Shown here one piece after another: positions 11,091 through 20,247 of a stretch of 20,351 nucleotides of DNA. A model generated the notes under the pieces. That model saw only the letters and a list, made by a program, of their open reading frames with translations. It had not been told where the DNA came from and did not search any database. The translations under genes were made by a program, and so were the position numbers. Positions within the stretch are counted from its first letter, which is position 1. Every line of letters begins with the position of its first letter. Source of the DNA: a virus (lineage: Duplodnaviria; Heunggongvirae; Uroviricota; Caudoviricetes); the IMG/VR virus record IMGVR_UViG_3300021440_000016; one strand, 5' to 3'.

Positions 11091-11615
11091 TTAATAGCTG
11101 CGTCGCTTCGCTCGACTCGCTGTGACGCTATCGTGAGAGTGTATTTTATAGATTGGTACCCCTGAAGGGTAATACTGAGCTATAAACTGATTAGCTAGAT
11201 CCAAGGTATTAAATACACCAACTAAGACTTCAGACCTACCCTTAGAGACTAGGCGTACCTCTAGGAGGTACTCATCATTGGAATATATCTTGGGGGTATA
11301 CTCCACAGGTTGATACTCTTTATAGAACGTATACCCAAGGTGTTTATAATAATCATACCAATACTTATAGCGAAGCCTAGCTTCTACAGAGTTAGCGTCT
11401 GTTACTGTTTCTAGAATTACTACATCTAGCTGTTTGTATTCTTTTCGTAATAGTTTGTAGCTATTGTTTCTAGACTTAGCTAATCGAAGTACCCTAGCTG
11501 CAGTAGTTAAAGCATCAGTACTACGCACTAAGTATACTCTTTTGTTTCTAGAGTTAACTAACCCTAGAATACAACTTACCCCTGACAGGCTATATAGTTC
11601 TTTAATTAGCTTCAT
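11091..11615 (-). CDS. Degenerate GIY-YIG-like nuclease domain protein
   Basis: N-terminal SGVSCILGLVNSRNKRVYLVRS resembles the GIYxxxNxxNxKxYIGxS pattern with degenerate signature residues. Likely start is ATG 11615. Confidence 0.45.
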   Translation of the reverse strand: MKLIKELYSLSGVSCILGLVNSRNKRVYLVRSTDALTTAARVLRLAKSRNNSYKLLRKEYKQLDVVILETVTDANSVEARLRYKYWYDYYKHLGYTFYKEYQPVEYTPKIYSNDEYLLEVRLVSKGRSEVLVGVFNTLDLANQFIAQYYPSGVPIYKIHSHDSVTASRAKRRSY

Positions 11616-11628
11616 AGTACTCAATTAC

Positions 11629-11636
11629 AGTTGTTA
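11629..11636 (-). promoter_or_regulatory. TAACAACT motif upstream of the GIY-YIG-like ORF
   Basis: Exact copy at the start of the leftward transcription block. Confidence 0.55.
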
Positions 11637-11953
11637 AGTAAAACTATCTATTACTTCCTACAATTAGCTATACCGATCTAATTCTTTTCAGTACTTATCT
11701 TCACCTACTAGACTAACTCAGCTCCGCAAATCGAGTTTTAGACAGTTTCAGAGGAGAGGGGGGGGATAGGGAGAGGGGAGGTATTGTTTCTAGAGTAGGA
11801 GCTGGAAAATGTTCGTGGGTGCTATACTCTCGTCGACTGCAGTCCAGAAGTAACACCCCCCCCCTACCTCATACCTCAATGATATCCACCACTTACTATA
11901 CACCACTACTATTTACCAATGATATCAACAGCTTATACCTAGCTACTTAATCT

Positions 11954-11968
11954 TGATAATGATTATCA
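11954..11968. promoter_or_regulatory. Perfect 7-1-7 palindrome TGATAAT-G-ATTATCA (Fur-box consensus)
   Basis: Exact match to the 7-1-7 Fur-family operator in the central non-coding region; the binding protein is not established. Confidence 0.55.
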
Positions 11969-12330
11969 GAATTGTTTTTATATCTATTGGATTTGTTTAG
12001 ACTTAATCAGATCCGTTGATTGATATTGATTCTAGCCCTCATTGTCAATCTTACCTTTCCCCTATTGTGTCAGACACTACCGAGTCTCAGCTGACACTGA
12101 ACTGTTTAAATTTAGTCCCGTTAACTGAATCGGTTTAGTGCCCGGGAGGAGTAGGGTCGACTTTCTGTATATAATGATACAAGAGCGGCGGGTGAGCTAC
12201 GCTTTACAGGTAGACGGGAAGGGGATGAAATAGCGTGATTCTTCCCTCCTCTCTTTTTTTTTCCCACAATCTCCCCAGCTTAACCCTTTTTCCTCCCCGT
12301 GTCTCAACTGACACAATTGTGGAAAAAACC

Positions 12331-12660
12331 CGGATCGACGATGCTGGAATTGTAACGCAGCGATGAAGGGCACGACGCCCCGAGCTAAAGCACGAAGCGC
12401 ACCCTAGAGGTTGCAGATAGCCCTTCGGGCCTGGGTATTAAGATCCGACGAAGCAAGCGCTGCGGCAGGTAAGGGGATGCAAGCTTAACGGTTACTGCCT
12501 TAAATGGAAGCCGTTGAAAAGAAAACCAGCGCAACCCGCGTACGAGCAAGGCAAGAGCCTGCAGCGAAGCGGAAGTCAAATAGCCCGCACATGATCGAAG
12601 GGCACGGATAGAATCAGTGTAACACTGGCATATATCCCTGCAGGTAGGTGTCCGGGAAGA
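12331..12660 (+). ncRNA. Putative structured non-coding RNA/leader of unknown class
   Basis: GC-richer than its flanks, with no credible plus-strand ORF. Hairpins include a C(UUCG)G loop, and long-range complementarities are 12331-36/12442-47, 12356-62/12458-64 and 12343-47/12526-30. Confidence 0.55.
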
Positions 12661-12715
12661 TTGAGTGTCTGTGTTCGCAGTGACACACTGAAGAGGCGAA
12701 AGCCGAAACACTCAA
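12661..12715 (+). ncRNA. Type III hammerhead ribozyme
   Basis: Stem III TTGAGTGT/ACACTCAA; GUC cleavage triplet 12667-69; stem I TGTGT/ACACA; core CTGAAGA 12688-94; stem II GGC-GAAA-GCC; GAAA 12705-08. All conserved core nucleotides are present. Confidence 0.95.
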
Positions 12716-12726
12716 CGAGGTACGTT

Positions 12727-12903
12727 ATGAATAACGATGATAAGATTCGAAAGATTAAAGAGAAGATGGACAAGCTGGCATCTAAGGGGCGAGATTTACA
12801 GTATAAACGTGATCAGCTGCAATTTAAATGGGAAGAGTTAAGCGATAAGCTTAGAGAACTTGGAATGCCTGTAGATTATGATTGGTACGATGCCCAGTCT
12901 TAA
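12727..12903 (+). CDS. First early gene, 58-aa coiled-coil protein
   Basis: ATG 12727 with GAGG RBS. The track's upstream TTG start lies within the ribozyme and is unlikely. Confidence 0.75.
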   Translation: MNNDDKIRKIKEKMDKLASKGRDLQYKRDQLQFKWEELSDKLRELGMPVDYDWYDAQS

Positions 12904-12920
12904 CAAAGAGGGATAATAAC

Positions 12921-13130
12921 ATGCTTAAACTAATTAAGGTGAGCGTTAACAAAGATTCTTATTATGTTAGCATTTACACTAAAGTAAACAAATTCGGATA
13001 GGAATCTGAACGCTATCACTTGCATCGGGATGCCTCTAATGCCTCACAGGTTAACGATGCCCATGCCACTGAGATTGTTAAGAGAATTGCTAAGCATGTG
13101 AATTCTATTGAGATTCAAGAGGCGGCCTAA
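12921..13130 (+). pseudogene. Early ORF interrupted by an in-frame TAG at 12999-13001
   Basis: GAGGG RBS and 26 codons, then TAG, then 42 further sense codons ending in a TAA that overlaps the next ATG. Confidence 0.55.
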
Positions 13131-13189
13131 TGGAATATCTAGGAATCTTTCTAATTATAGTAGGAATTACAATAATTACAAGAGGTTAG
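13130..13189 (+). CDS. 19-aa hydrophobic peptide
   Basis: MEYLGIFLIIVGITIITRG; TAATG coupling with the upstream ORF. Confidence 0.5.
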   Translation: MEYLGIFLIIVGITIITRG

Positions 13190-13190
13190 T

Positions 13191-13349
13191 ATGTCAATTC
13201 AAGAAATTGAGAATGAGATTTCCTTTGTAAAACGGCAACTTGCCCGCCGCGATCTTCCGCAGTGCAAGGTGATCGACTTAACTATTCTACTGATTGAATT
13301 GCAGTCTAGCTTAATTCATAAGCTAAAGGAGTTTAAGTATGCAGCTTAA
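13191..13349 (+). CDS. 52-aa helical hypothetical protein
   Basis: GAGG RBS; own translation MSIQEIENEISFVKRQLARR... Confidence 0.65.
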   Translation: MSIQEIENEISFVKRQLARRDLPQCKVIDLTILLIELQSSLIHKLKEFKYAA

Positions 13350-13458
13350 TAAAGTGTTTGACTTTGTAGTAACCCTTCTAATCGCTTCGCTTGCCTTTGG
13401 CAGTCTGCTTGCCGTCGCCATGCTTATCGGAGCAGCGTCTACCTTAATTGGAGGTTAA
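13339..13458 (+). CDS. 39-aa membrane peptide, paralog A
   Basis: AAGGAG RBS; MQLNKVFDFVVTLLIASLAFGSLLAVAMLIGAASTLIGG; similar to 14330-14473. Confidence 0.7.
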   Translation: MQLNKVFDFVVTLLIASLAFGSLLAVAMLIGAASTLIGG

Positions 13459-13459
13459 C

Positions 13460-13561
13460 ATGAACGAAAAAGAACTGTCAACTAAAGAAATTGATGATTT
13501 GTTTGAAGCGCTTGATACTGCAATTAATGAGATTGAGTCAAGCGATAATAACTCTAAGTGA
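13460..13561 (+). CDS. 33-aa acidic peptide
   Basis: GGAGG RBS; MNEKELSTKEIDDLFEALDTAINEIESSDNNSK. Confidence 0.55.
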   Translation: MNEKELSTKEIDDLFEALDTAINEIESSDNNSK

Positions 13562-13603
13562 TCTTTTTTTGTATCTTAATACCTGACCAAAGAGGTTAAC
13601 TAT

Positions 13604-13993
13604 ATGAATACTAACACGATGCATTATTTTATTCTCTCCGCTGAACTGAGTACCCGTCCGGGCCTTACCAATGCCGCTAATACGCAGGATCTTAGGGACA
13701 AGCTTAGCCGCATGGGATACCCCTTCACGGAAGCGGAAGGTTTCTATAACGGCTCTAAAGAAGTGTCCTTTGTTGTTGGTTGCACCTTTGCCGATGTCGG
13801 CAAGCTTAGGCAGGGCATTATGTCTCTTGCGGAATCTTATGGACAGGAGTCAATTGCTTATGTCGACAATGAATCCCGCTTGACTCTTGAATACCCTAAT
13901 GGTATCCGCGAGTATATCGGCAAGCTCGAACTTGATGATAAGGCGCTTGACTTTTATACTAAGATTAATGGTAACAAGTATTCCGCTAAGTGA
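13604..13993 (+). CDS. Phage SAM lyase (T3 SAMase family), paralog A
   Basis: By-eye alignment with T3 SAMase: FILSAE..N (T3 VLVSAF..N), GFY (GCY), conserved E, YGQES (WEQDC), LEYPNG (LVYAKG) and C-terminal YT..NG.KY. Confidence 0.75.
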   Translation: MNTNTMHYFILSAELSTRPGLTNAANTQDLRDKLSRMGYPFTEAEGFYNGSKEVSFVVGCTFADVGKLRQGIMSLAESYGQESIAYVDNESRLTLEYPNGIREYIGKLELDDKALDFYTKINGNKYSAK

Positions 13994-14005
13994 AAGGATT
14001 GGAAT

Positions 14006-14320
14006 ATGAAGTCAATTAAAAAAATTAAGTTCACCGCCAAGCTTTTTACCGAAGGCTCATGGGGCACCCGCAGCATTGCCGGCAAGCATCCTTGCACCAT
14101 GGAACTTTTCGGCGGTACCGTATCCACCGACGGCCATCGGAAATATTATCAAATTGAGTTTGTTGCCGGGAAGGATGGCTGTGTTGGCGTAGAACATATC
14201 GGTCTCACAGTTAACGAAAATAATGAATTGGTCGACTATGATGGGGTCTTTAGTATTCCTTTGGAAGGTATCAAGTTGATTGAATCTGTTGGTATTATCG
14301 TATCGGATGATTTTCGGTAA
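14006..14320 (+). CDS. Hypothetical early protein
   Basis: 104-aa ORF with RBS in the early operon. Confidence 0.75.
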   Translation: MKSIKKIKFTAKLFTEGSWGTRSIAGKHPCTMELFGGTVSTDGHRKYYQIEFVAGKDGCVGVEHIGLTVNENNELVDYDGVFSIPLEGIKLIESVGIIVSDDFR

Positions 14321-14329
14321 GAGGATTTT

Positions 14330-14473
14330 ATGAAGAAGATTAACACTAAAGCTTGCCCTCTTATGCAAAAGCTAGTTGATATCGTCCTAACCGTCCTAAT
14401 CGCCTCTATAGCCTTTGGAAGCTTAGTTTCAGTAGTTGTGATTATGGGTGCTATATCCCGCGCTCTTAACTGA
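14330..14473 (+). CDS. 47-aa membrane peptide, paralog B
   Basis: GAGG RBS; contains VLTVLIASIAFGSLVSV, matching VVTLLIASLAFGSLLAV of paralog A. Confidence 0.7.
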   Translation: MKKINTKACPLMQKLVDIVLTVLIASIAFGSLVSVVVIMGAISRALN

Positions 14474-14488
14474 TTAAGGAGATTATTT

Positions 14489-14878
14489 ATGAATAACAAT
14501 GTGATGCATCATTTTATTGTGTCTGCTGAAAAGTCTAATCGTCCGAGCATGGTTAACTCCGCCAACACTAAAGAGTTGACCCTAAAGCTTTCTGAGCTTG
14601 GATATCCCTTTACTCAAGCACAAGGATGCTATAACGGAACTACCGAAGTATCCTTTATCGTCGCTTGTCAATTCAAGGATATGCCTAAGCTGAAACGTGA
14701 ATTGCTTGCAATTGCCGATAGTTATGCTCAAGATTGTATCGCATATGTGGATAATGAATCACGCTTGACGTTGGAATATAGCAATGGTATCAGTGAGTAT
14801 ATCGGTAAGTTGTCTGTTGACAACGAAGCGAGCGACGCATATACAAGCGTCAATGGAATGAAGTATAGCGCTAAGTAA
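14489..14878 (+). CDS. Phage SAM lyase (T3 SAMase family), paralog B
   Basis: Same length as paralog A, with 80/129 identical residues by ungapped hand count; has GCY and QDC motifs as in T3 SAMase. Confidence 0.8.
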   Translation: MNNNVMHHFIVSAEKSNRPSMVNSANTKELTLKLSELGYPFTQAQGCYNGTTEVSFIVACQFKDMPKLKRELLAIADSYAQDCIAYVDNESRLTLEYSNGISEYIGKLSVDNEASDAYTSVNGMKYSAK

Positions 14879-14892
14879 AAGGACTAAACAAT

Positions 14893-15093
14893 ATGAAGAC
14901 TTATAAAAAGATTGACCTATTCTTTAATGGGGACTATCTCTGTTCTACGAATCAGTCTAAAACATTGAAAGATGCAAGAAAAAAATACGTTGAGTCTCTA
15001 GAACATAGGGGCCATACGCTTGGAAAGATATCCTTCCTTGAAGAGTATATTCTAAAACATAGTACATTGATCAAGTGTAAGTTTTCGAAATGA
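14893..15093 (+). CDS. Hypothetical early protein
   Basis: 66-aa ORF with RBS; its N-terminus (MKTYKKI) resembles that of 14006 (MKSIKKI). Confidence 0.7.
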   Translation: MKTYKKIDLFFNGDYLCSTNQSKTLKDARKKYVESLEHRGHTLGKISFLEEYILKHSTLIKCKFSK

Positions 15094-15100
15094 GGATTAT

Positions 15101-15439
15101 ATGAAAAAAATTAAACGCGAAGTTATTGACCTTGTCCCTGTTGGCCTTTGGCTTGTGTCCTTTGACCGGATATGGGATATTAACGAAGAGACTGGCCATG
15201 AGCGGATTAGTGATATTGAGCCCATGGAATTGAAACGAGTTACCTCCAAGAGTTACCTTAGCCTGTGTGAAGACGTGGTTAATAAGGATATTAATTGGAA
15301 TACCGACCATGTGAACGACGATACTCATGATTTTAGGCCGCGCTTGTTTAAGACTAAGAAAGAAGCACTTGAACATATCAAGTATACAGTGAATCGGTTT
15401 AAGAATCCCCAGCCATGGGAATCTTTTATTAAGTTCTAA
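15101..15439 (+). CDS. Hypothetical early protein
   Basis: 112-aa ORF with GAGG RBS. Confidence 0.75.
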   Translation: MKKIKREVIDLVPVGLWLVSFDRIWDINEETGHERISDIEPMELKRVTSKSYLSLCEDVVNKDINWNTDHVNDDTHDFRPRLFKTKKEALEHIKYTVNRFKNPQPWESFIKF

Positions 15440-15449
15440 AGGAGTTAAT

Positions 15450-15683
15450 ATGCGAACGTTTGAAATTATCGAATGGGTAACGCTAGCGAGCGGCGATACT
15501 GTACGACGGGTAAAGGAGACTCGGGAGTTTAATAACCTTAGACATGCAATGACCGTCCTTACTTATGAGTGTTATGCTCCATCAATGATTGACTATCGTA
15601 TCACTAACAATGAGTTAGTTGCTTTTAATGTTGACACTCCCGATGTGAAATTGTACATCATCCGGGAATACAAGGAGATTTAA
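15450..15683 (+). CDS. Hypothetical early protein
   Basis: 77-aa ORF with AAGGAG RBS. Confidence 0.75.
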   Translation: MRTFEIIEWVTLASGDTVRRVKETREFNNLRHAMTVLTYECYAPSMIDYRITNNELVAFNVDTPDVKLYIIREYKEI

Positions 15684-15684
15684 T

Positions 15685-15945
15685 ATGTCGAACGACAATA
15701 CCTATAACGGATGAGCTAACTGGGAAACTTGGAATGTAGCCCTTTGGATTGATAACGATGAATTCCTTTATGGAGCCGCACGAATGTTCCGACATAAGTT
15801 TAGGCCTTATAAAGAATTTGTGGAATACATGAAAAGCTTTGATTCAGAAATCGGGGAAATCCGTTTGCAAACTCCGGATGGCGTTGCATGGAATGATTCA
15901 GGGCTGGACACCGATGAATTGGATAAGATGATTCAAGATCTTTGA
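15685..15945 (+). pseudogene. Member of the common phage YNGWxNxETWNVxLW family, interrupted by TGA at the first Trp (15712-14)
   Basis: MSNDNTYNG*ANWETWNVALWIDNDEFLY...ELDKMIQDL; the motif is recognisable and the stop falls where W is expected. Confidence 0.75.
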
Positions 15946-15998
15946 ATAGTTGAGTCGAAAGATCGAAGATATTGACACAAACATTGAGGATCTTTAAT

Positions 15999-16199
15999 AT
16001 GACACGTTACCAAGTGTATGTAGAGAATGAACCGATGCAAGATTTTACTAACATCGATTCAGCTATTGATTATGCATCTAGTCATGTGTATTTAGATCCT
16101 AAGTTAGGACGCGCTGTAAAGTTTGAACTAGAAAATAATAAGTCGGTTAAGTATAGCTATGGGTTTAAAAGTGTAGAACTAAAGCCCATTGAAAATTAG
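15999..16199 (+). CDS. Hypothetical early protein
   Basis: Track ORF 15972..16199; ATG 15999 has a GAGG RBS. Confidence 0.65.
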   Translation: MTRYQVYVENEPMQDFTNIDSAIDYASSHVYLDPKLGRAVKFELENNKSVKYSYGFKSVELKPIEN

Positions 16200-16241
16200 T
16201 CCCGCGCACGGAAGCACTAGAAGTTGCGGAGAGTTTTTAAC

Positions 16242-16321
16242 CGGGCTGTATCCCCTTCCTCTTATAAAGGATAGAAAGGGTAGTTGGTAACACGTGGGTT
16301 CAAATCCCACCAGCCCGACCA
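16242..16321 (+). tRNA. Atypical tRNA-like RNA, anticodon UAU (Ile-like), non-canonical arm order, CCA encoded
   Basis: Acceptor CGGGCTG/CAGCCCG plus A-CCA; T arm GTGGG-TTCAAAT-CCCAC; anticodon arm TCCT-CTTATAA-AGGA. There is no D arm 5' of the anticodon arm, and AGTTGGTA occurs 3' of it. Confidence 0.8.
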
Positions 16322-16329
16322 TTTTATTT

Positions 16330-16446
16330 ATGATTGAATACCAATACAAATGCCCTAAATGTAATAAAACCATTACATTAGGGAGCAGACACAACTACTA
16401 TAAGTGCCCCTATTGTAAAAAAGCTAAGATGTATATTGTCAAGTAA
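16330..16446 (+). CDS. 38-aa Zn-ribbon protein
   Basis: MIEYQYKCPKC...YKCPYC; two CxxC motifs. Confidence 0.6.
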   Translation: MIEYQYKCPKCNKTITLGSRHNYYKCPYCKKAKMYIVK

Positions 16447-16456
16447 AGGAGTAAGT

Positions 16457-16714
16457 ATGTACGTTATTAAAGCCCTATTCCGAGTAGATCCTAATGCCTA
16501 CACTGTACAGGAATTTGTCCTTAATAAGGAAAGTCAATGGGTAATCGCCACTGGGGATGCTATTATGTTCTATAATGTTGAAAGCGCAGTGAATTTTGCT
16601 AAGGGTTCTAAAATTATAGAAAGTCTATCTAGACTCGGATCGGGATCAATGCCTTATATCGTCGGGCCGCGCGGCGGGAAGTATTCAATCTTTACCGGGA
16701 GACTTTTAAAATGA
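16457..16714 (+). CDS. Hypothetical early protein
   Basis: Track ORF 16436..16714; ATG 16457 has an AAGGAG RBS. Confidence 0.7.
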   Translation: MYVIKALFRVDPNAYTVQEFVLNKESQWVIATGDAIMFYNVESAVNFAKGSKIIESLSRLGSGSMPYIVGPRGGKYSIFTGRLLK

Positions 16715-16947
16715 GCGGGGAAAAAGAATTTATTTATGAATATGAGCACTATGTAAAGACTATGCCCTATAGCGAAGTGATGATGCATATGAAGCTGACA
16801 GGTACTAAATGTCGTATCAGCTTTCAAGGTGTATCAGTTAAAGTGTGACCAGATATTGACCGTGGTGGATACGTTACTGTAACTCCCAGCGAAGCTGGCC
16901 TACATTGGGACGACGAAGAGAATCGGTATTACTTTCGTAAGGAGTGA
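16711..16947 (+). pseudogene. Early ORF interrupted by an in-frame TGA at 16846-48
   Basis: 45 codons, TGA, then 32 sense codons (PDIDRGGYVTVTPSEAGLHWDDEENRYYFRKE) ending 2 nt before the next ATG; the downstream part has no start or RBS of its own. Confidence 0.55.
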
Positions 16948-16949
16948 AT

Positions 16950-17396
16950 ATGTTTAAATCTATTAACGTTGAAAAGAAGTTTTCGAAACTGAATAAAGAG
17001 CTTAAGAATGAATACGGAAGTAAGGCGGTTCAGGCCATCTTCAATGGAGATCAATACGGCGCCGAACATTACTCAAGGAGGGGAGCTAAAGGATTTTCCT
17101 TTAGCGTCCCTTACCGTCCGCGCTTGCGTATTTTTAAATCATCTAGCGGCAAGCTTGTGTTTAACCCTTATACCGGTCATGGTACTAGCTATGATTGGTA
17201 TTCTATTGCCCAAGTGTTTAATGGTAAATTGATTCTAAATACTTATCGTTATAGCGTTACCACTAATAAACATATCCAGGAACTACATTCCCTCTTTAAT
17301 CAACTCGGTCTGAAGTATCAGACCATTGAAGCACCTAGAGGATTGCAGGACCTAGATCAAGCAATGCGTTCTAACACTCTCGCGCTTTACGGTTAA
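16950..17396 (+). CDS. Hypothetical phage protein
   Basis: Track ORF 16944..17396; ATG 16950 has an AAGGAG RBS. Confidence 0.75.
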   Translation: MFKSINVEKKFSKLNKELKNEYGSKAVQAIFNGDQYGAEHYSRRGAKGFSFSVPYRPRLRIFKSSSGKLVFNPYTGHGTSYDWYSIAQVFNGKLILNTYRYSVTTNKHIQELHSLFNQLGLKYQTIEAPRGLQDLDQAMRSNTLALYG

Positions 17397-17536
17397 AGTT
17401 CCTAGAACCGACTCAGCTAACTATGACTTGATCTTTGAACATAACTACGCTATGTATATGGCGGATGCGTTCAATATCAAGCCTATGTTTCTAATGATCT
17501 ATACGGAGAATTGAATCATAAGAATCGAGGATCAGT

Positions 17537-18097
17537 ATGTCTGGCTGCAGGCCGCTTACTAGGGAAGAATCGGATAAAGTTTTATCTCTGCTTAAAACAC
17601 AGCGAGATAAGACTTTGTTCATTCTTGGTATTAAATCAGGATTTCGTATCTCCGAATTGTTGACTATCCGAGTCAGGGATATTATCCAGAATGATCAGGT
17701 AGTTAATAGAATCAAGGTGTCTAGGATGTACATGAAAGCTAACAGGACAAGAGAAGTAGCTCTTAATCCCGTTGCTAAAGAATACATTCTGGAGTTGATT
17801 CTTCGGGACAAGTTGGAACCGAATCATTATCTATTCCGCTCTAGGAAAGGAGACAACAAGCCTATCACGCGGGTACAAGCTTGGTATGTGCTGAAGCAGG
17901 CATTCAACACGGCAGGGCTACTCGGGACTACTGGTACACATTCCATGCGAAAGTCCTTCGGCATGAATGTCTATAGGGCTTTAGGTAATGATCTAGTAGC
18001 CACGCAGAAAGCGTTGGGCCATTCGGACATTGGCTCTACTATTGCATATCTTCCCACGGACGACGAGGAGATTGACAAGGTGATTGTAAATCTGTAG
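17537..18097 (+). CDS. Small tyrosine recombinase (catalytic domain only)
   Basis: GFRISE (R), K in VSRMYMK, THSMRK (H-x-x-R), LGHS (H) and TIAYL (Y); 186 aa. Confidence 0.92.
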   Translation: MSGCRPLTREESDKVLSLLKTQRDKTLFILGIKSGFRISELLTIRVRDIIQNDQVVNRIKVSRMYMKANRTREVALNPVAKEYILELILRDKLEPNHYLFRSRKGDNKPITRVQAWYVLKQAFNTAGLLGTTGTHSMRKSFGMNVYRALGNDLVATQKALGHSDIGSTIAYLPTDDEEIDKVIVNL

Positions 18098-18100
18098 TAT
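18072..18100 (+). promoter_or_regulatory. Sigma70-type promoter driving the downstream tRNA-like RNA
   Basis: TTGACA (18072-77), 17 nt, TAGTAT (18095-100). Confidence 0.65.
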
Positions 18101-18180
18101 AGAACTGCTACGTATATAGATGTTCAGTGACGAGCAGACACAACGTGTCCTTGTCGCCGGAAGTCCGGACCGTAGCAAAG

Positions 18181-18245
18181 CAGTAGGTAGTTTAATAGGT
18201 TAAAACACCGGAAGGAGACTGCAGGTTCAACTCCTGTCCTACTGC
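18181..18245 (+). ncRNA. tRNA-like RNA with the anticodon arm reduced to a 2-bp GGAA tetraloop
   Basis: Acceptor CAGTAGG/CCTACTG (extends to 10 bp); TA linker; D arm GTTT-AATAGGTTA-AAAC; CC-GGAA-GG; variable AGACT; T arm GCAGG-TTCAACT-CCTGT; no encoded CCA. Confidence 0.8.
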
Positions 18246-18301
18246 TTATTAATTTATCCTATCGTTAAAAATTAGTCCCGGCAAAAACAAGGGCATGATT
18301 T

Positions 18302-18335
18302 GGGGCGGGTTTAAAAGACTTGCCCCTTTTTATTT
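18302..18335 (+). terminator. Rho-independent terminator
   Basis: GGGGCGGGT/ACTTGCCCC stem followed by TTTTTATTT. Confidence 0.85.
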
Positions 18336-18336
18336 C

Positions 18337-18365
18337 TTGACGCCCGCTGAAGCCTTTTGTATAGA
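18337..18365 (+). promoter_or_regulatory. Putative sigma70-type promoter of the response regulator
   Basis: TTGACG, 17 nt, TATAGA; the predicted +1 falls at or next to ATG 18372. Confidence 0.45.
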
Positions 18366-18371
18366 AGGGCT

Positions 18372-18713
18372 ATGAAAATCCTAATTGTAGAAGATGACGA
18401 TGCTATTTGTCAAACACTGAAATTAATCGTGCAGATGAACGCTCACTTTGCCGAATGCGCTATGACGATTAAAGATGCAAAAAGGTTGTTGACTGAAAAT
18501 CAATACGATGCTATATGCCTAGATCTATTGATTCAAGGTGAAATGTCAACAGATCTTTTAAAATTAAAAGGGAAATCAAAAGCAATAGTGCTGTCCGCTT
18601 GGCATCAAGCTCCGGCTATTGCAGCTGAGTACTCTCTTGATTTGATAAAAAAACCATTCGATATCGAAGAGCTTGAAAAAAAGCTGTTGACAAAAGACAC
18701 TGACCTGAACTAA
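18372..18713 (+). CDS. Single-domain response regulator (CheY-like receiver)
   Basis: KILIVEDD acidic pocket, phospho-acceptor D in ICLDLL, S in IVLSA, and KKPF; no output domain. Start reassigned to ATG 18372. Confidence 0.88.
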   Translation: MKILIVEDDDAICQTLKLIVQMNAHFAECAMTIKDAKRLLTENQYDAICLDLLIQGEMSTDLLKLKGKSKAIVLSAWHQAPAIAAEYSLDLIKKPFDIEELEKKLLTKDTDLN

Positions 18714-18758
18714 TACAGAACGCGCTGCAATAACGCAGTACTAAAGGAGAACGTAAAA

Positions 18759-19223
18759 ATGAGTCCTATTCTTGACGGTAATAAAATTAAACAGATCACG
18801 AACGCTACGCCGACCGCAGAGGTTACTATGATGAGCCTTGCGCTTCGTCAGCGTATGCGCCCATATTCTAACTTGAGGCAGGCCAAGATGCAATTGATTC
18901 GAGAAGGCGCAAAAGTTGTAGACAAAGAATTTGTCCAATTTTGGAAAGAACTTGAAGATGCAGATGTCGGCAGTCTCGTATATGGTAAAACTGGGCAGCC
19001 TGAGAAGTTTCAATGGTACTACAATCTCAAGACGATCGCTCGCGCAGCGATTGAGGGTAAGCCGATTAACACTGAAAAGCTTCCCGACGTAGAAAAGAAG
19101 ATGGCTAGAACTGCGAGAGCCAAGCTAGAGGCCAAGCCACGCAGGAAGTCCACGGTACAGGTTACGCTGACACGTAGCGAGCTGAACTTGTTCAATAAGC
19201 TACTGAACAAGATCAGTAAATAA
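18759..19223 (+). CDS. Basic hypothetical protein, possibly DNA-binding
   Basis: 154 aa with AAGGAG RBS and a Lys/Arg-rich C-terminus. Confidence 0.75.
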   Translation: MSPILDGNKIKQITNATPTAEVTMMSLALRQRMRPYSNLRQAKMQLIREGAKVVDKEFVQFWKELEDADVGSLVYGKTGQPEKFQWYYNLKTIARAAIEGKPINTEKLPDVEKKMARTARAKLEAKPRRKSTVQVTLTRSELNLFNKLLNKISK

Positions 19224-19246
19224 AAGCCGCTTGCTTATGACTGAAT

Positions 19247-19283
19247 GCCCCGGTAGGATGCTTCTTGCCGGGGCTTTTTATTT
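19247..19283 (+). terminator. Rho-independent terminator
   Basis: GCCCCGGTAGGA/TCTTGCCGGGGC stem followed by TTTTTATTT. Confidence 0.88.
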
Positions 19284-19333
19284 GAAAACGTTAACTTCGC
19301 ATATCCATCTTTCATACTCTAGGAGGATCTAGT

Positions 19334-19582
19334 ATGATTAAATATTCAATTCGATACCTTTTCTGTAATTCTATCGCAGATCAGCTGTGGGATATCTACG
19401 ATGAGTCTGAAGCTAGACCTTTTAGCAGTGCTGCTTCTAGTCCTATCGAGATTCTCGCTGATCTAATGTCAGCTAACTATTTGAACTTAGATGGTAGCTA
19501 TGAGTATGTTGATCATCGTCACCATGCTACGGTGATTGACTCAGTGACCCGTAAACCTATCCTTCACCTTGAGGAGGTCTGA
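19334..19582 (+). CDS. Hypothetical protein
   Basis: 82 aa with AGGAGG RBS. Confidence 0.75.
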   Translation: MIKYSIRYLFCNSIADQLWDIYDESEARPFSSAASSPIEILADLMSANYLNLDGSYEYVDHRHHATVIDSVTRKPILHLEEV

Positions 19583-19695
19583 TGTTTCTTCCAATTCTCG
19601 CTGTAGCGAGTCTCTATTGTCTATTCACTGGCTCTATTGGAATTGGAATTCTTCTAGCTTGCGTTGTGGCTTTTGTTCAGTGGACCTTCGAATAG
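19582..19695 (+). CDS. 37-aa membrane peptide
   Basis: GAGGAGG RBS and TGATG coupling; MFLPILAVASLYCLFTGSIGIGILLACVVAFVQWTFE. Confidence 0.65.
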   Translation: MFLPILAVASLYCLFTGSIGIGILLACVVAFVQWTFE

Positions 19696-19791
19696 TCCTG
19701 TATCAATTCATAAGTATATAGACATTTAGTTTTTTATGTCTTACGCTGATACTTATGTATTTGAGTATATCATAAACCAAAGGAGAAGTCA

Positions 19792-20247
19792 ATGCGTGCA
19801 GTTTATATTCTTACTTTGTCTACGTTCGTTTTCGGGTGCACCCCGATAACTCCGCAAATGATTGCAGGCAAGAACGAATGCAAGGCAGTGAGCAGCCTAG
19901 ACTCTATTGAGGTTGACTGTGGAAGCTATACCTACTCAATCCCTAAACCTAAAGATGGAAAGGATGGTAAAGACGGTGCAGACGGAACTAACGGGCAGGA
20001 TGCGGCGGCTAGCCAATACGATATTGTCTCTGTACTTGACCCATGCGGAGACACTGCTAATGTGGTTGATGAGGTTCTCCTGAAGCTTCGGAACGGTCAA
20101 ACCCTAGCTAGCTTTAGTGATTCTAGTGGTGGATCTAATACCCGGTTCAGTCTCATCGGCCCCGGAAACTACGTCACGACCGACGGCAGCAACTGTTACT
20201 TTACGATTGACGCTGACGGTAATATGATCAATGATCATAGGAGTTGA
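19792..20247 (+). CDS. Predicted lipoprotein with a short collagen-like (G-X-Y) segment
   Basis: Signal peptide ending FVFG-C (lipobox-like); GKDGKDGADGTNGQD repeats; Cys-containing C-terminal domain. Confidence 0.75.
   Translation: MRAVYILTLSTFVFGCTPITPQMIAGKNECKAVSSLDSIEVDCGSYTYSIPKPKDGKDGKDGADGTNGQDAAASQYDIVSVLDPCGDTANVVDEVLLKLRNGQTLASFSDSSGGSNTRFSLIGPGNYVTTDGSNCYFTIDADGNMINDHRS

What the first reader, a model, noticed from the sequence alone, without database searches (positions are those of the whole stretch)
12661..12715. Intact type III hammerhead ribozyme placed at the 5' end of the early operon
Seen in sequence: all core nucleotides, three stems, loop 1 UCGCAGUG and loop 2 GAAA, with predicted cleavage after C12669. 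The first early RBS and ATG (12727) follow 11 nt after stem III. Established: loop 1 UN(n)YN and loop 2 RN(n)A patterns are the tertiary-contact signature of fast natural hammerheads, and cleavage leaves a 5'-OH and a 2',3'-cyclic phosphate. Inference: self-cleavage gives the anti-defence early mRNA a 5'-OH, hairpin-protected end (a poor RppH/RNase E 5'-pathway substrate) and releases the upstream structured RNA as a separate molecule.
Basis: partly seen in the sequence, partly recalled or inferred. Interest (0 to 1): 0.8.

Follow-up and report, generated by a model that had tools for sequence, protein, structure and literature searches.

The report
Hammerhead ribozyme heading phage early operon
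A complete self-cutting hammerhead RNA sits just before the first early gene of an uncultured freshwater phage; this is a known kind of phage element, but related phages carry other self-cutting RNAs in the same early leader region, which suggests the cut itself is what is being kept.

Summary
Window 12661-12715 (+) is a canonical type III hammerhead with every core nucleotide. Stem III has 8 bp, stem I 5-6 bp and stem II 3 bp with a GAAA loop. Cleavage is predicted after C12669. The SD lies at 12717-12720 and the ATG at 12727.

Rfam Hammerhead_3 scores 37 bits (E 5e-6), below its 48.5-bit gathering score. None of 2000 dinucleotide shuffles gave an equal motif.

Relatives are the main evidence:
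- A phage with 67% TerL identity has a twister-P1 ribozyme 7 nt before its first early ATG.
- Seven IMG/VR relatives (51-53% TerL where measured) have two type II hammerheads. Their cleavage sites bracket a conserved 269-nt non-coding RNA, and the second ends about 20 nt before the next ORF.
- Two relatives without a long leader have no ribozyme.

Most likely the ribozyme cuts a long non-coding leader away from the early mRNA, which includes two SAM-lyase genes. The mRNA would then begin with a 5'-OH inside a hairpin. The stabilisation benefit is untested.

The kind is known: haloviruses HF1/HF2, and hammerheads beside ardA (PMC3088659). This scan has already reported ribozyme class swaps in other phages (e1-5372596, e1-3451111). 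No RNA data could be obtained.

The parts
12661..12715 (+). Type III hammerhead ribozyme (whole motif)
   Evidence: Read directly from the sequence. Rfam RF00008 scores 37 bits, E 5.4e-6. The MFE fold gives the three-way junction. It is the only descriptor hit in the window, with 0 of 2000 shuffles as good.
12669..12670 (+). Predicted scissile bond: after C17 (12669), before U1.1 (12670)
   Evidence: The position follows from the class's numbering applied. The descriptor output reads 'cleave_after 12669'. It has not been tested experimentally.
12670..12687 (+). Stem I hairpin (5 bp plus an optional U-G wobble; loop 1). It becomes the 5' terminal hairpin of the cleaved mRNA.
12688..12694 (+). 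Catalytic core C3-A9 (CUGAAGA)
   Evidence: This is the only CUGANGA within 3.7 kb on either side.
12695..12708 (+). Stem II (GGC/GCC, GAAA tetraloop) followed by core G12 A13 A14 A15.1 (12705-12708)
12717..12729 (+). Shine-Dalgarno GAGG (12717-12720) and start codon ATG (12727-12729) of the first operon ORF
   Evidence: The ORF 12727-12903 is also called by the ENA gene caller.
12727..12903 (+). First ORF of the + strand operon (58 aa, charged, no family)
   Evidence: An identical protein is on 5 assembled contigs.
12331..12660 (+). GC- and purine-rich non-coding leader upstream of the ribozyme. It would carry the 2',3'-cyclic phosphate end after cleavage.
   Evidence: No gene is called here. 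Its fold is no more stable than shuffles, z -0.28. It has no Rfam family and no similarity to the 269-nt RNA of relatives.
13604..14878 (+). Two S-AdoMet lyase paralogs (13604-13993 and 14489-14878) in the same operon, 0.9-1.8 kb downstream
   Evidence: PF23780 on both products; PHROG 2226.
11783..11875 (+). Conserved intergenic landmark (GTTTCTAGA, about 55 nt, then a C-run). I used it to locate the homologous intergenic region in relatives.
   Evidence: The pattern scan found 10 further IMG/VR records, one of them spurious.

Best explanation
The element is a genuine, probably constitutively active type III hammerhead. It is transcribed as part of the long 5' leader of the phage's + strand early operon.

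Cleavage between C12669 and U12670 separates two RNAs:
- A non-coding leader of at least 340 nt, which keeps only 9 nt of the ribozyme and ends in a 2',3'-cyclic phosphate.
- The polycistronic mRNA: the 58-aa ORF, several small ORFs, two SAM lyases and more. It begins with a 5'-OH on the first base of the stem I hairpin, 57 nt before the ATG, with the SD two bases beyond stem III.

The selected effect is the physical uncoupling of leader and message right next to the ribosome-binding site. That gives the first gene a fixed, short, hairpin-capped 5' UTR whatever lies upstream, in the manner of an insulator, and it gives the leader a defined 3' end.

Shown: the motif, its position, its rarity by chance, and that related phages place other ribozyme classes in the same leader region, 7-20 nt before an ORF start.

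Inferred: transcription across it, cleavage, and any gain in mRNA stability or translation.
For: 1. The motif is complete, with a significant Rfam match and no chance equivalent.

2. The first ORF has a 6-nt SD-to-ATG spacing and only 11 nt between the ribozyme and the ATG. No sigma-70-like promoter was found between 11001 and 12945 on the + strand. A promoter for this ORF must therefore lie upstream of the ribozyme, so the ribozyme is in the 5' UTR.

3. Ribozyme classes differ between relatives at this place.
- L003 (TerL 67% identical, same gene order) has a twister-P1 match at 47.6 bits, E 1.2e-7. It ends 7 nt before the first early ATG, and its P1 3' strand doubles as the purine-rich SD.
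- Seven IMG/VR relatives carry two type II hammerheads in the homologous region. TerL is 51-53% identical in the three of them where it was measured. The second hammerhead ends about 20 nt before the next ATG.
- Stems I, II and III differ by compensatory changes among the four distinct versions.

4. Two relatives whose promoter abuts the first ORF, with no long leader, have no ribozyme: G001 and G005.

5. In all three architectures the 3' product starts at or within 2 nt of a closed helix.

6. There are published precedents in PMC3088659.
- The HF1/HF2 halovirus hammerhead lies 13 nt upstream of the first ORF of an early polycistronic transcript, and that transcript's mapped 5' end is within 3 nt of the cleavage site.
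- Hammerheads sit immediately upstream of the anti-restriction gene ardA.

7. In 29 IMG/VR contigs sharing one twister core word, most copies are followed within about 10-45 nt by an SD and a start codon.
Against: - There is no RNA evidence of any kind.
- The transcription start is not identified.
- The Rfam score is below the family's gathering threshold.
- Stem II has only 3 bp, and the loop 1 / loop 2 pattern fits the published tertiary-contact motif only loosely. Activity at physiological Mg2+ is therefore not assured.
- In thermodynamic models with 100-480 nt of upstream context, the 5' half of the ribozyme often pairs with upstream sequence instead. P(all three stems) is 7e-5 to 0.09. 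Cleavage may be partial or conditional.
- No close relative with the same hammerhead was found, so there is no covariation for this copy.
- An 8-bp stem III may release the products slowly.
Confidence: 0.65

Rival explanations
1. The product that matters is the upstream RNA. On this reading the ribozyme is a 3'-end-forming device for a discrete phage non-coding RNA made early in infection, and the effect on the mRNA is incidental. In relatives the equivalent RNA is cut out on both sides. It could then persist as a 5'-OH / 2',3'-cyclic-phosphate molecule, or be circularised by a host RtcB-type ligase.
For: - Seven relatives have two type II hammerheads whose cleavage sites are 268-269 nt apart. 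They bracket a conserved RNA with no evident protein-coding frame (longest run seen by eye about 14 codons). It is 82.5-91% identical among four distinct versions, and 6 of 73 predicted pairs show compensatory changes. It folds better than shuffles, z -2.4.
- Ribozymes co-occur with long non-coding leaders and are absent where there is no leader.
- The type III topology leaves only 9 nt of ribozyme on the upstream product.
Against: - The window's leader folds no better than shuffled sequence (z -0.28).
- It matches no Rfam family.
- It has no nhmmer similarity to the 269-nt RNA.
- It has no second ribozyme at its 5' side, even allowing one core mismatch.
- Perreault et al. looked for circular products of clustered phage hammerheads and found none.
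Confidence: 0.2
2. Cleavage is a negative or conditional control. On this reading the 5'-OH product is fed to a 5'-exonuclease of RNase J type, as with the glmS ribozyme. Alternatively, folding of the ribozyme is gated by the competing upstream pairing, so that the fraction cleaved tunes early-gene dosage.
For: - Alternative pairing of 12661-12680 with sequence within 100 nt upstream is predicted to compete with stems III and I.
- The glmS precedent shows that cleavage can trigger decay.
- Perreault et al. suggested that some phage hammerheads may cleave in a regulated way.
Against: - No ligand-binding or sensor domain is attached to any stem.
- Relatives use unrelated ribozyme classes (twister, type II hammerhead) at this place. 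That argues for plain cleavage rather than a class-specific switch.
- The 5' end is buried in a hairpin, which would be a poor entry site for an exonuclease.
- The host, and so its RNase set, is unknown.
Confidence: 0.1
3. The motif is an inactive relic or a chance look-alike, with no role in this phage.
For: - The Rfam score is below the gathering threshold.
- Stem II is short.
- No identical or near-identical copy was found in other phage lineages that could show purifying selection on this copy.
Against: - All 11 strictly conserved core positions, H17, A15.1-U16.1 and G10.1-C11.1 are intact.
- 0 of 2000 shuffles match it.
- E is 5.4e-6.
- It sits next to a ribosome-binding site, where relatives also keep ribozymes.
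Confidence: 0.05

Closest known systems
Type III hammerhead ribozymes (Rfam RF00008, clan CL00010)
   Same: Identical conserved core, a C17 cleavage site, closed stems I and II, an open stem III, and a GNRA loop 2. The Rfam model is matched over its full length.
   Different: It scores 37 bits against a 48.5-bit gathering cut-off. Stem II has only 3 bp. It is DNA-encoded in a tailed phage. Type III is described as typical of infectious circular RNAs, and types I/II as typical of bacteria and phages (PMC13725137).
HHphage hammerhead of haloarchaeal viruses HF1/HF2 (Perreault et al. 2011, PMC3088659)
   Same: It is a hammerhead 13 nt upstream of the start codon of the first ORF of an early polycistronic transcript, against 11 nt here. 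The mapped 5' end of that transcript lies within 3 nt of the cleavage site.
   Different: HHphage is a structural variant that needs very high Mg2+, it is in an archaeal virus, and its downstream gene is a helicase. Here the core is canonical, the host is presumably bacterial, and the operon carries SAM lyases.
Clustered hammerheads flanking genes in prophages, e.g. the triple hammerhead around ardA in Agrobacterium tumefaciens (PMC3088659)
   Same: These are self-cleaving ribozymes placed at gene boundaries of phage polycistronic RNAs, including directly upstream of an anti-restriction gene. Cleavage was shown in vitro and in E. coli.
   Different: Here a single ribozyme separates a long non-coding leader from the first ORF, not one ORF from another. 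The anti-restriction genes lie 0.9-1.8 kb further downstream.
RiboJ, the synthetic ribozyme insulator (sTRSV-derived type III hammerhead placed between promoter and RBS; Lou et al. 2012, from my own knowledge; used in PMC7536230)
   Same: It has the same topology and the same place: a type III hammerhead directly before the RBS. It cuts off a variable 5' leader and leaves the ribozyme body as a structured 5'-OH end on the mRNA.
   Different: RiboJ is engineered and carries an added hairpin to expose the RBS. The phage element is natural, and no effect on expression has been measured.
RNase III processing site R0.3 upstream of gene 0.3 in phage T7/T3 early RNA (own knowledge)
   Same: It cuts the early transcript between the promoter-proximal leader and the first, anti-restriction, gene.
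   Different: It depends on a host protein enzyme and leaves 5'-phosphate / 3'-OH ends. Here the RNA cuts itself and leaves 5'-OH / 2',3'-cyclic phosphate ends.
glmS ribozyme (reviewed in PMC6765202)
   Same: It is a 5'-UTR self-cleaving ribozyme whose 5'-OH product determines the fate of the mRNA.
   Different: glmS needs a metabolite cofactor and lowers expression through RNase J1. No cofactor site is seen here, and the expected direction of the effect is unknown.

Membership tests
Hammerhead ribozyme (class) | Conserved core C3 U4 G5 A6 N7 G8 A9 and G12 A13 A14 | tested here: met
   CUGAAGA at 12688-12694 and GAA at 12705-12707.
Hammerhead ribozyme (class) | Cleavage-site nucleotide H17 (not G), preceded by U16.1 paired to A15.1 | tested here: met
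   C12669 is preceded by U12668, which pairs with A12708 (descriptor).
Hammerhead ribozyme (class) | Three helices around the core, with Watson-Crick pairs adjacent to it (N1.1-N2.1, G10.1-C11.1) | tested here: met
   U12670-A12687 and G12695-C12704. Stems I, II and III have 5-6, 3 and 8 bp. The MFE of the isolated motif gives this fold.
Hammerhead type III (Rfam RF00008) | Stems I and II closed by loops, with the 5' and 3' ends in stem III | tested here: met
Hammerhead type III (Rfam RF00008) | Score at or above the curated gathering threshold (a database cut-off, not a biochemical feature) | tested here: inconclusive
   37.0 bits against 48.5, but E 5.4e-6 and the full model length aligned.
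Hammerhead ribozyme (class) | Tertiary contact between loops or stems I and II that gives fast cleavage at physiological Mg2+ | tested here: inconclusive
   Loop 2 GAAA fits RNnA. Loop 1 fits UNmYN only with m = 5, where the usual value is 3-4 (PMC2632901). No pseudoknot partner was identified.
Hammerhead ribozyme (class) | Site-specific self-cleavage giving 5'-OH and 2',3'-cyclic phosphate ends | not testable with these tools
   This needs in vitro transcription or end-specific RNA-seq.
Phage gene-boundary self-cleaving ribozymes (Perreault 2011 arrangement) | Located in a phage polycistronic unit, in the sense orientation, next to an ORF boundary | tested here: met
   Same strand as all ORFs from 12727 to 20247, and 11 nt before the first ATG. 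The phage context is terminase, portal and endolysin.
Phage gene-boundary self-cleaving ribozymes (Perreault 2011 arrangement) | The same place is occupied by ribozymes in related genomes | tested here: met
   Twister-P1 in L003. A type II hammerhead pair in 7 relatives. Absent in 2 relatives that lack the leader.

The most novel reading that the evidence does not exclude
This phage group may carry a natural 'cut-out' cassette for an early non-coding RNA. On this reading the leader region encodes an RNA whose ends are made by self-cleaving ribozymes.
- In the window, one type III hammerhead forms the 3' end.
- In one relative, a twister does so.
- In seven relatives, a pair of type II hammerheads excises a conserved 269-nt RNA with 5'-OH and 2',3'-cyclic phosphate ends. 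In the predicted consensus fold a closing helix brings the two ends near each other.

Those ends are what an RtcB-type ligase joins, so the excised RNA could be a phage-encoded circular or otherwise unusually stable RNA made at the very start of infection, perhaps with an anti-defence role. That would be the natural counterpart of the engineered ribozyme-flanked circular-RNA expression systems.
Probability: 0.15. Interest if true: 0.8.

Novelty: new member of a known kind. Interest (0 to 1): 0.5.

Why it matters
What self-cleaving ribozymes do in phages has been an open question since 2011. Hundreds are known, and their role is still described as elusive (PMC6765202, PMC3088659).

This copy alone adds one more example. 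Its relatives make it a compact comparative series:
- One gene neighbourhood is found with a type III hammerhead, a twister, a pair of type II hammerheads around a conserved 269-nt RNA, or no ribozyme at all.
- A ribozyme is present only where there is a long non-coding leader.

That points to a concrete experiment. Swap or inactivate the ribozyme in leader-reporter fusions, and measure the fate of the leader, the 5' end of the mRNA and its translation.

It also identifies a ribozyme-excised phage RNA that could be checked for circularity.

Tried and rejected
- **DGR link.** The tail-fibre ORF 997-2193 has an Mtd_N domain, so I tested whether the purine-rich leader was a diversity-generating-retroelement template. 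No repeat pairs the leader with that gene, and no reverse transcriptase is in view. Rejected.
- **Close relatives by DNA.** Megablast of 11600-13400 against 50,697 phage records found nothing. An exact core-plus-stem-II word in IMG/VR found only two unrelated type I hammerheads.
- **Own genome.** None is held.
- **Anchoring on the 177-aa neighbour gene.**
  - The word-based search found only the gene itself.
  - The profile search found 644 family members.
  - Their contigs, and those of closer TerL relatives, break 150-400 nt upstream of the gene, at the conserved C-run landmark. They did not reach the ribozyme region.
- **Other relatives.** TerL relatives at 61-63% identity have a different gene order upstream. 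Logan and JGI records could not be searched by handle.
- **First ORF (58 aa).** It has no homologues. The exact look-up returned the same phage on 5 contigs, with the variants collapsed.
- **Second ribozyme at the 5' side of the leader.** An Rfam scan at E up to 10 and a descriptor allowing one core mismatch found none.
- **Homology of the window leader to the 269-nt RNA of relatives.** nhmmer found no hit.
- **Minus-strand ORFs over the ribozyme** (12385-12711 and 12576-12773). They have no Pfam family and are not called by the assembly's gene caller. I treated them as non-genes.
- **Unresolved relatives.** L012 and L018 showed no known ribozyme, but L018's contig ends inside its GC-rich leader and the Rfam filters are less sensitive in large batches. 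I count these two as inconclusive, not as absences.

Full report
**1. The observation**

Reading 12661-12715 on the + strand gives a textbook type III hammerhead:
- An 8-bp stem III (12661-12668 with 12708-12715, including A15.1-U16.1).
- C17 at 12669.
- A 5-bp stem I (12670-12674 / 12683-12687, plus a possible U-G wobble) capped by loop 1.
- The core CUGAAGA at 12688-12694.
- A 3-bp stem II, GGC/GCC, with a GAAA loop.
- GAAA at 12705-12708.

The isolated 55-mer folds into this junction as its minimum-free-energy structure.

The default Rfam scan of the window did not list it. A sensitive scan of 11600-13000 aligned the whole Hammerhead_3 model at 37.0 bits, E 5.4e-6, below the 48.5-bit gathering score.

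A descriptor I wrote for all three hammerhead topologies hits only this site in the window. Among 2000 dinucleotide-preserving shuffles of the window, none contained a type III motif with stems this good, and three contained a relaxed one. No second hammerhead exists in 11600-12760, even with one core mismatch.

**2. Surroundings**

The window is part of an uncultured phage of about 85 kb (ENA assembly contig of 85,491 bp). Earlier agents of this scan described it as a freshwater SU10/phiEco32-like phage.

The minus strand to the left carries a tail fibre, the portal and the large terminase. An endolysin gene lies on the + strand between 9008 and 9559.

From 12727 rightwards, every ORF is on the + strand and closely spaced, each with its own SD. 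These include two S-AdoMet lyase paralogs (PF23780).

Between the two divergent blocks lies 1.1 kb without genes (11625-12726). The hammerhead is the last element of that gap. The SD GAGG is at 12717-12720 and the ATG at 12727.

A promoter for this ORF cannot fit between the ribozyme and the SD, and no sigma-70-like site was found there. If the ORF is expressed, the ribozyme is therefore in its 5' UTR. I could not place the transcription start. A TATAAT box at 12170-12175 and a hairpin-plus-U-run near 12205-12260 are candidates for a promoter and an attenuator, but they are unsupported.

Minus-strand ORFs overlapping the ribozyme have no family and are not called.

**3. Relatives**

No near-identical DNA exists in the phage or IMG/VR collections. 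Terminase-based searches found a large family, with 1295 proteins at E <= 1e-80.

L003 is the closest relative that covers the region. Its TerL is 67% identical, its portal 83% and its neighbour gene 42%, and the gene order is the same.
- It has a twister-P1 match at 47.6 bits, E 1.2e-7, at the end of a non-coding leader.
- The match ends 7 nt before the first early ATG.
- Its P1 3' strand supplies the purine-rich SD.

A conserved landmark in the gap (GTTTCTAGA, about 55 nt, then CTACCCCCC) let me find the homologous region directly. Many relatives' contigs end at this landmark.

In seven IMG/VR records my descriptor found two type II hammerheads. I measured TerL in three of the seven, and it is 51-53% identical to the window's.
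- Each hammerhead has one extra U after A9.
- They lie on the early strand, after a 67-aa ORF.
- Rfam independently reported one of them at its gathering score.
- Their cleavage sites are 268-269 nt apart.
- The RNA between them is 82.5-91% identical among four distinct versions, and I saw no protein-coding frame in it (longest run by eye about 14 codons).
- Its consensus fold has six pairs with compensatory changes. The ribozyme stems also covary.
- The second hammerhead ends about 20 nt before the next ATG.

Two further relatives, G001 and G005, have a sigma-70-like promoter directly before the first ORF. They have no long leader and no ribozyme.

L012 and L018 are inconclusive. None of the ten additional records found by the pattern scan contains a type III hammerhead.

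**4. Mechanism**

Three points follow from the comparison:
- Different ribozyme classes occupy the same leader region, 7-20 nt ahead of an ORF start. What is conserved is the cut, not the sequence.
- Ribozymes are present only where a long non-coding RNA precedes the ORF. The cut therefore serves to separate that RNA from the message.
- In each architecture the 3' product begins at or within 2 nt of a closed helix. Here U12670 is the first base of stem I.

The most likely reading is leader removal next to the ribosome-binding site. It yields an mRNA with a short, fixed, hairpin-capped, 5'-OH leader, and a leader fragment with a cyclic-phosphate end.

That a 5'-OH, base-paired end escapes the RppH/RNase E 5'-end-dependent pathway is established for E. 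coli (my own knowledge). Whether it applies here depends on an unknown host. In hosts with RNase J the opposite could hold.

Thermodynamic modelling shows that sequence within 100 nt upstream can compete with stems III and I. This may simply be resolved during transcription, it may make cleavage partial, or it may help release the 9-nt tail after cleavage. I cannot tell which.

The rival that the leader is itself the functional product is supported by the excised 269-nt RNA of relatives. It is weakened for this window, where the leader has no structural signal (z -0.28), no family, no similarity to the 269-nt RNA and no 5' ribozyme.

**5. Comparison with what is known**

Hammerheads in phage and prophage DNA, often at gene boundaries, have been known since 2010-2011.

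Perreault et al. (PMC3088659) describe a hammerhead 13 nt upstream of the first ORF of an early polycistronic transcript in haloviruses HF1/HF2. The mapped RNA 5' end lies within 3 nt of the cleavage site. They also describe hammerheads immediately upstream of the anti-restriction gene ardA, and they discuss possible circular products, which they did not detect.

Reviews still call the function in bacteria and phages elusive (PMC6765202). The nearest functional analogue is the engineered RiboJ insulator.

A check of 29 IMG/VR contigs that share one twister core word shows that most of those twisters are likewise followed closely by an SD and a start codon. This scan has already reported ribozyme class swaps at one position in other phages.

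One unusual point is that the window's copy is type III, which the literature associates with infectious circular RNAs rather than phage DNA.

**6. Verdict**

The element is real and well formed, and it is very probably a working ribozyme. As a kind it is known, so this is a new member.

Its added value is comparative. One phage neighbourhood is found with a hammerhead III, a twister, a hammerhead II pair around a conserved 269-nt RNA, or nothing, and this tracks the presence of a leader.

Noticed in passing
L033:2460-2786, L034:1819-2144, L037:4904-5230, L039:10204-10532, L040:4033-4361, L041:7145-7471, L043:486-814: Seven IMG/VR relatives carry a pair of type II hammerheads, each with an extra U between A9 and stem II. 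Their cleavage sites are 268-269 nt apart and bracket a conserved non-coding RNA with compensatory base changes. Rfam reported only one of the fourteen copies. The excised RNA would have 5'-OH and 2',3'-cyclic-phosphate ends.
   Followed up: partly
L003:2338-2388 (minus strand): A twister-P1 ribozyme match (47.6 bits, below the 67.2-bit gathering score) ends 7 nt before the first early ATG of the closest informative relative. Its P1 3' strand overlaps the SD, and it lacks the optional P3 hairpin.
   Followed up: partly
window 11751-11875: A G-run / C-run pair surrounds a conserved GTTTCTAGA ... CTACCCCCC landmark found in all relatives. Contigs of at least five relatives end within or just past it (L009, L026, L030, L031 and a JGI contig). 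It may be a genome terminus, a packaging or replication site, or just an assembly-breaking homopolymer.
   Followed up: partly
window 12166-12260: A perfect TATAAT (12170-12175) is preceded by TG. A similar TATATAAT box is present in two relatives. It is followed by a hairpin and a run of nine or more U at about 12205-12260. These may be an early promoter and attenuator upstream of the leader.
   Followed up: no
window 16242-16318 and 18181-18245: There are two tRNA-like Rfam matches (33.8 and 47.5 bits) on the early strand that ARAGORN does not call as tRNAs. One lacks most of the anticodon arm.
   Followed up: no
L006:14515-14594: A group I intron core match (37 bits, E 6e-6) lies in a distant relative (TerL 33%), downstream of the portal gene.
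   Followed up: no
P0023, P0072 (TerL homologues of 837-841 aa): Some terminase homologues of this family are about 350 aa longer and carry intein/homing-endonuclease Pfam domains (PF14528, PF14890). L029 has a GIY-YIG/NUMOD3 gene abutting the terminase.
   Followed up: no
L001:12152-12205 and L002:4452-4502: Two unrelated IMG/VR phages carry type I hammerheads with the same GGC-GAAA-GCC stem II as the window's copy, each located between small ORFs.
   Followed up: no
L055-L082 (29 IMG/VR contigs): One 18-nt twister core word occurs in 29 viral contigs. In most, an SD and a start codon follow within about 10-45 nt of the ribozyme, so placement next to a ribosome-binding site looks general for phage twisters.
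   Followed up: partly
L018:100-600 (minus strand): A relative with 51% TerL identity has a GC-rich non-coding stretch of about 450 nt, after a TTGACA-type promoter, in the same place as the window's leader. The contig ends before any ORF or ribozyme could be seen.
   Followed up: no
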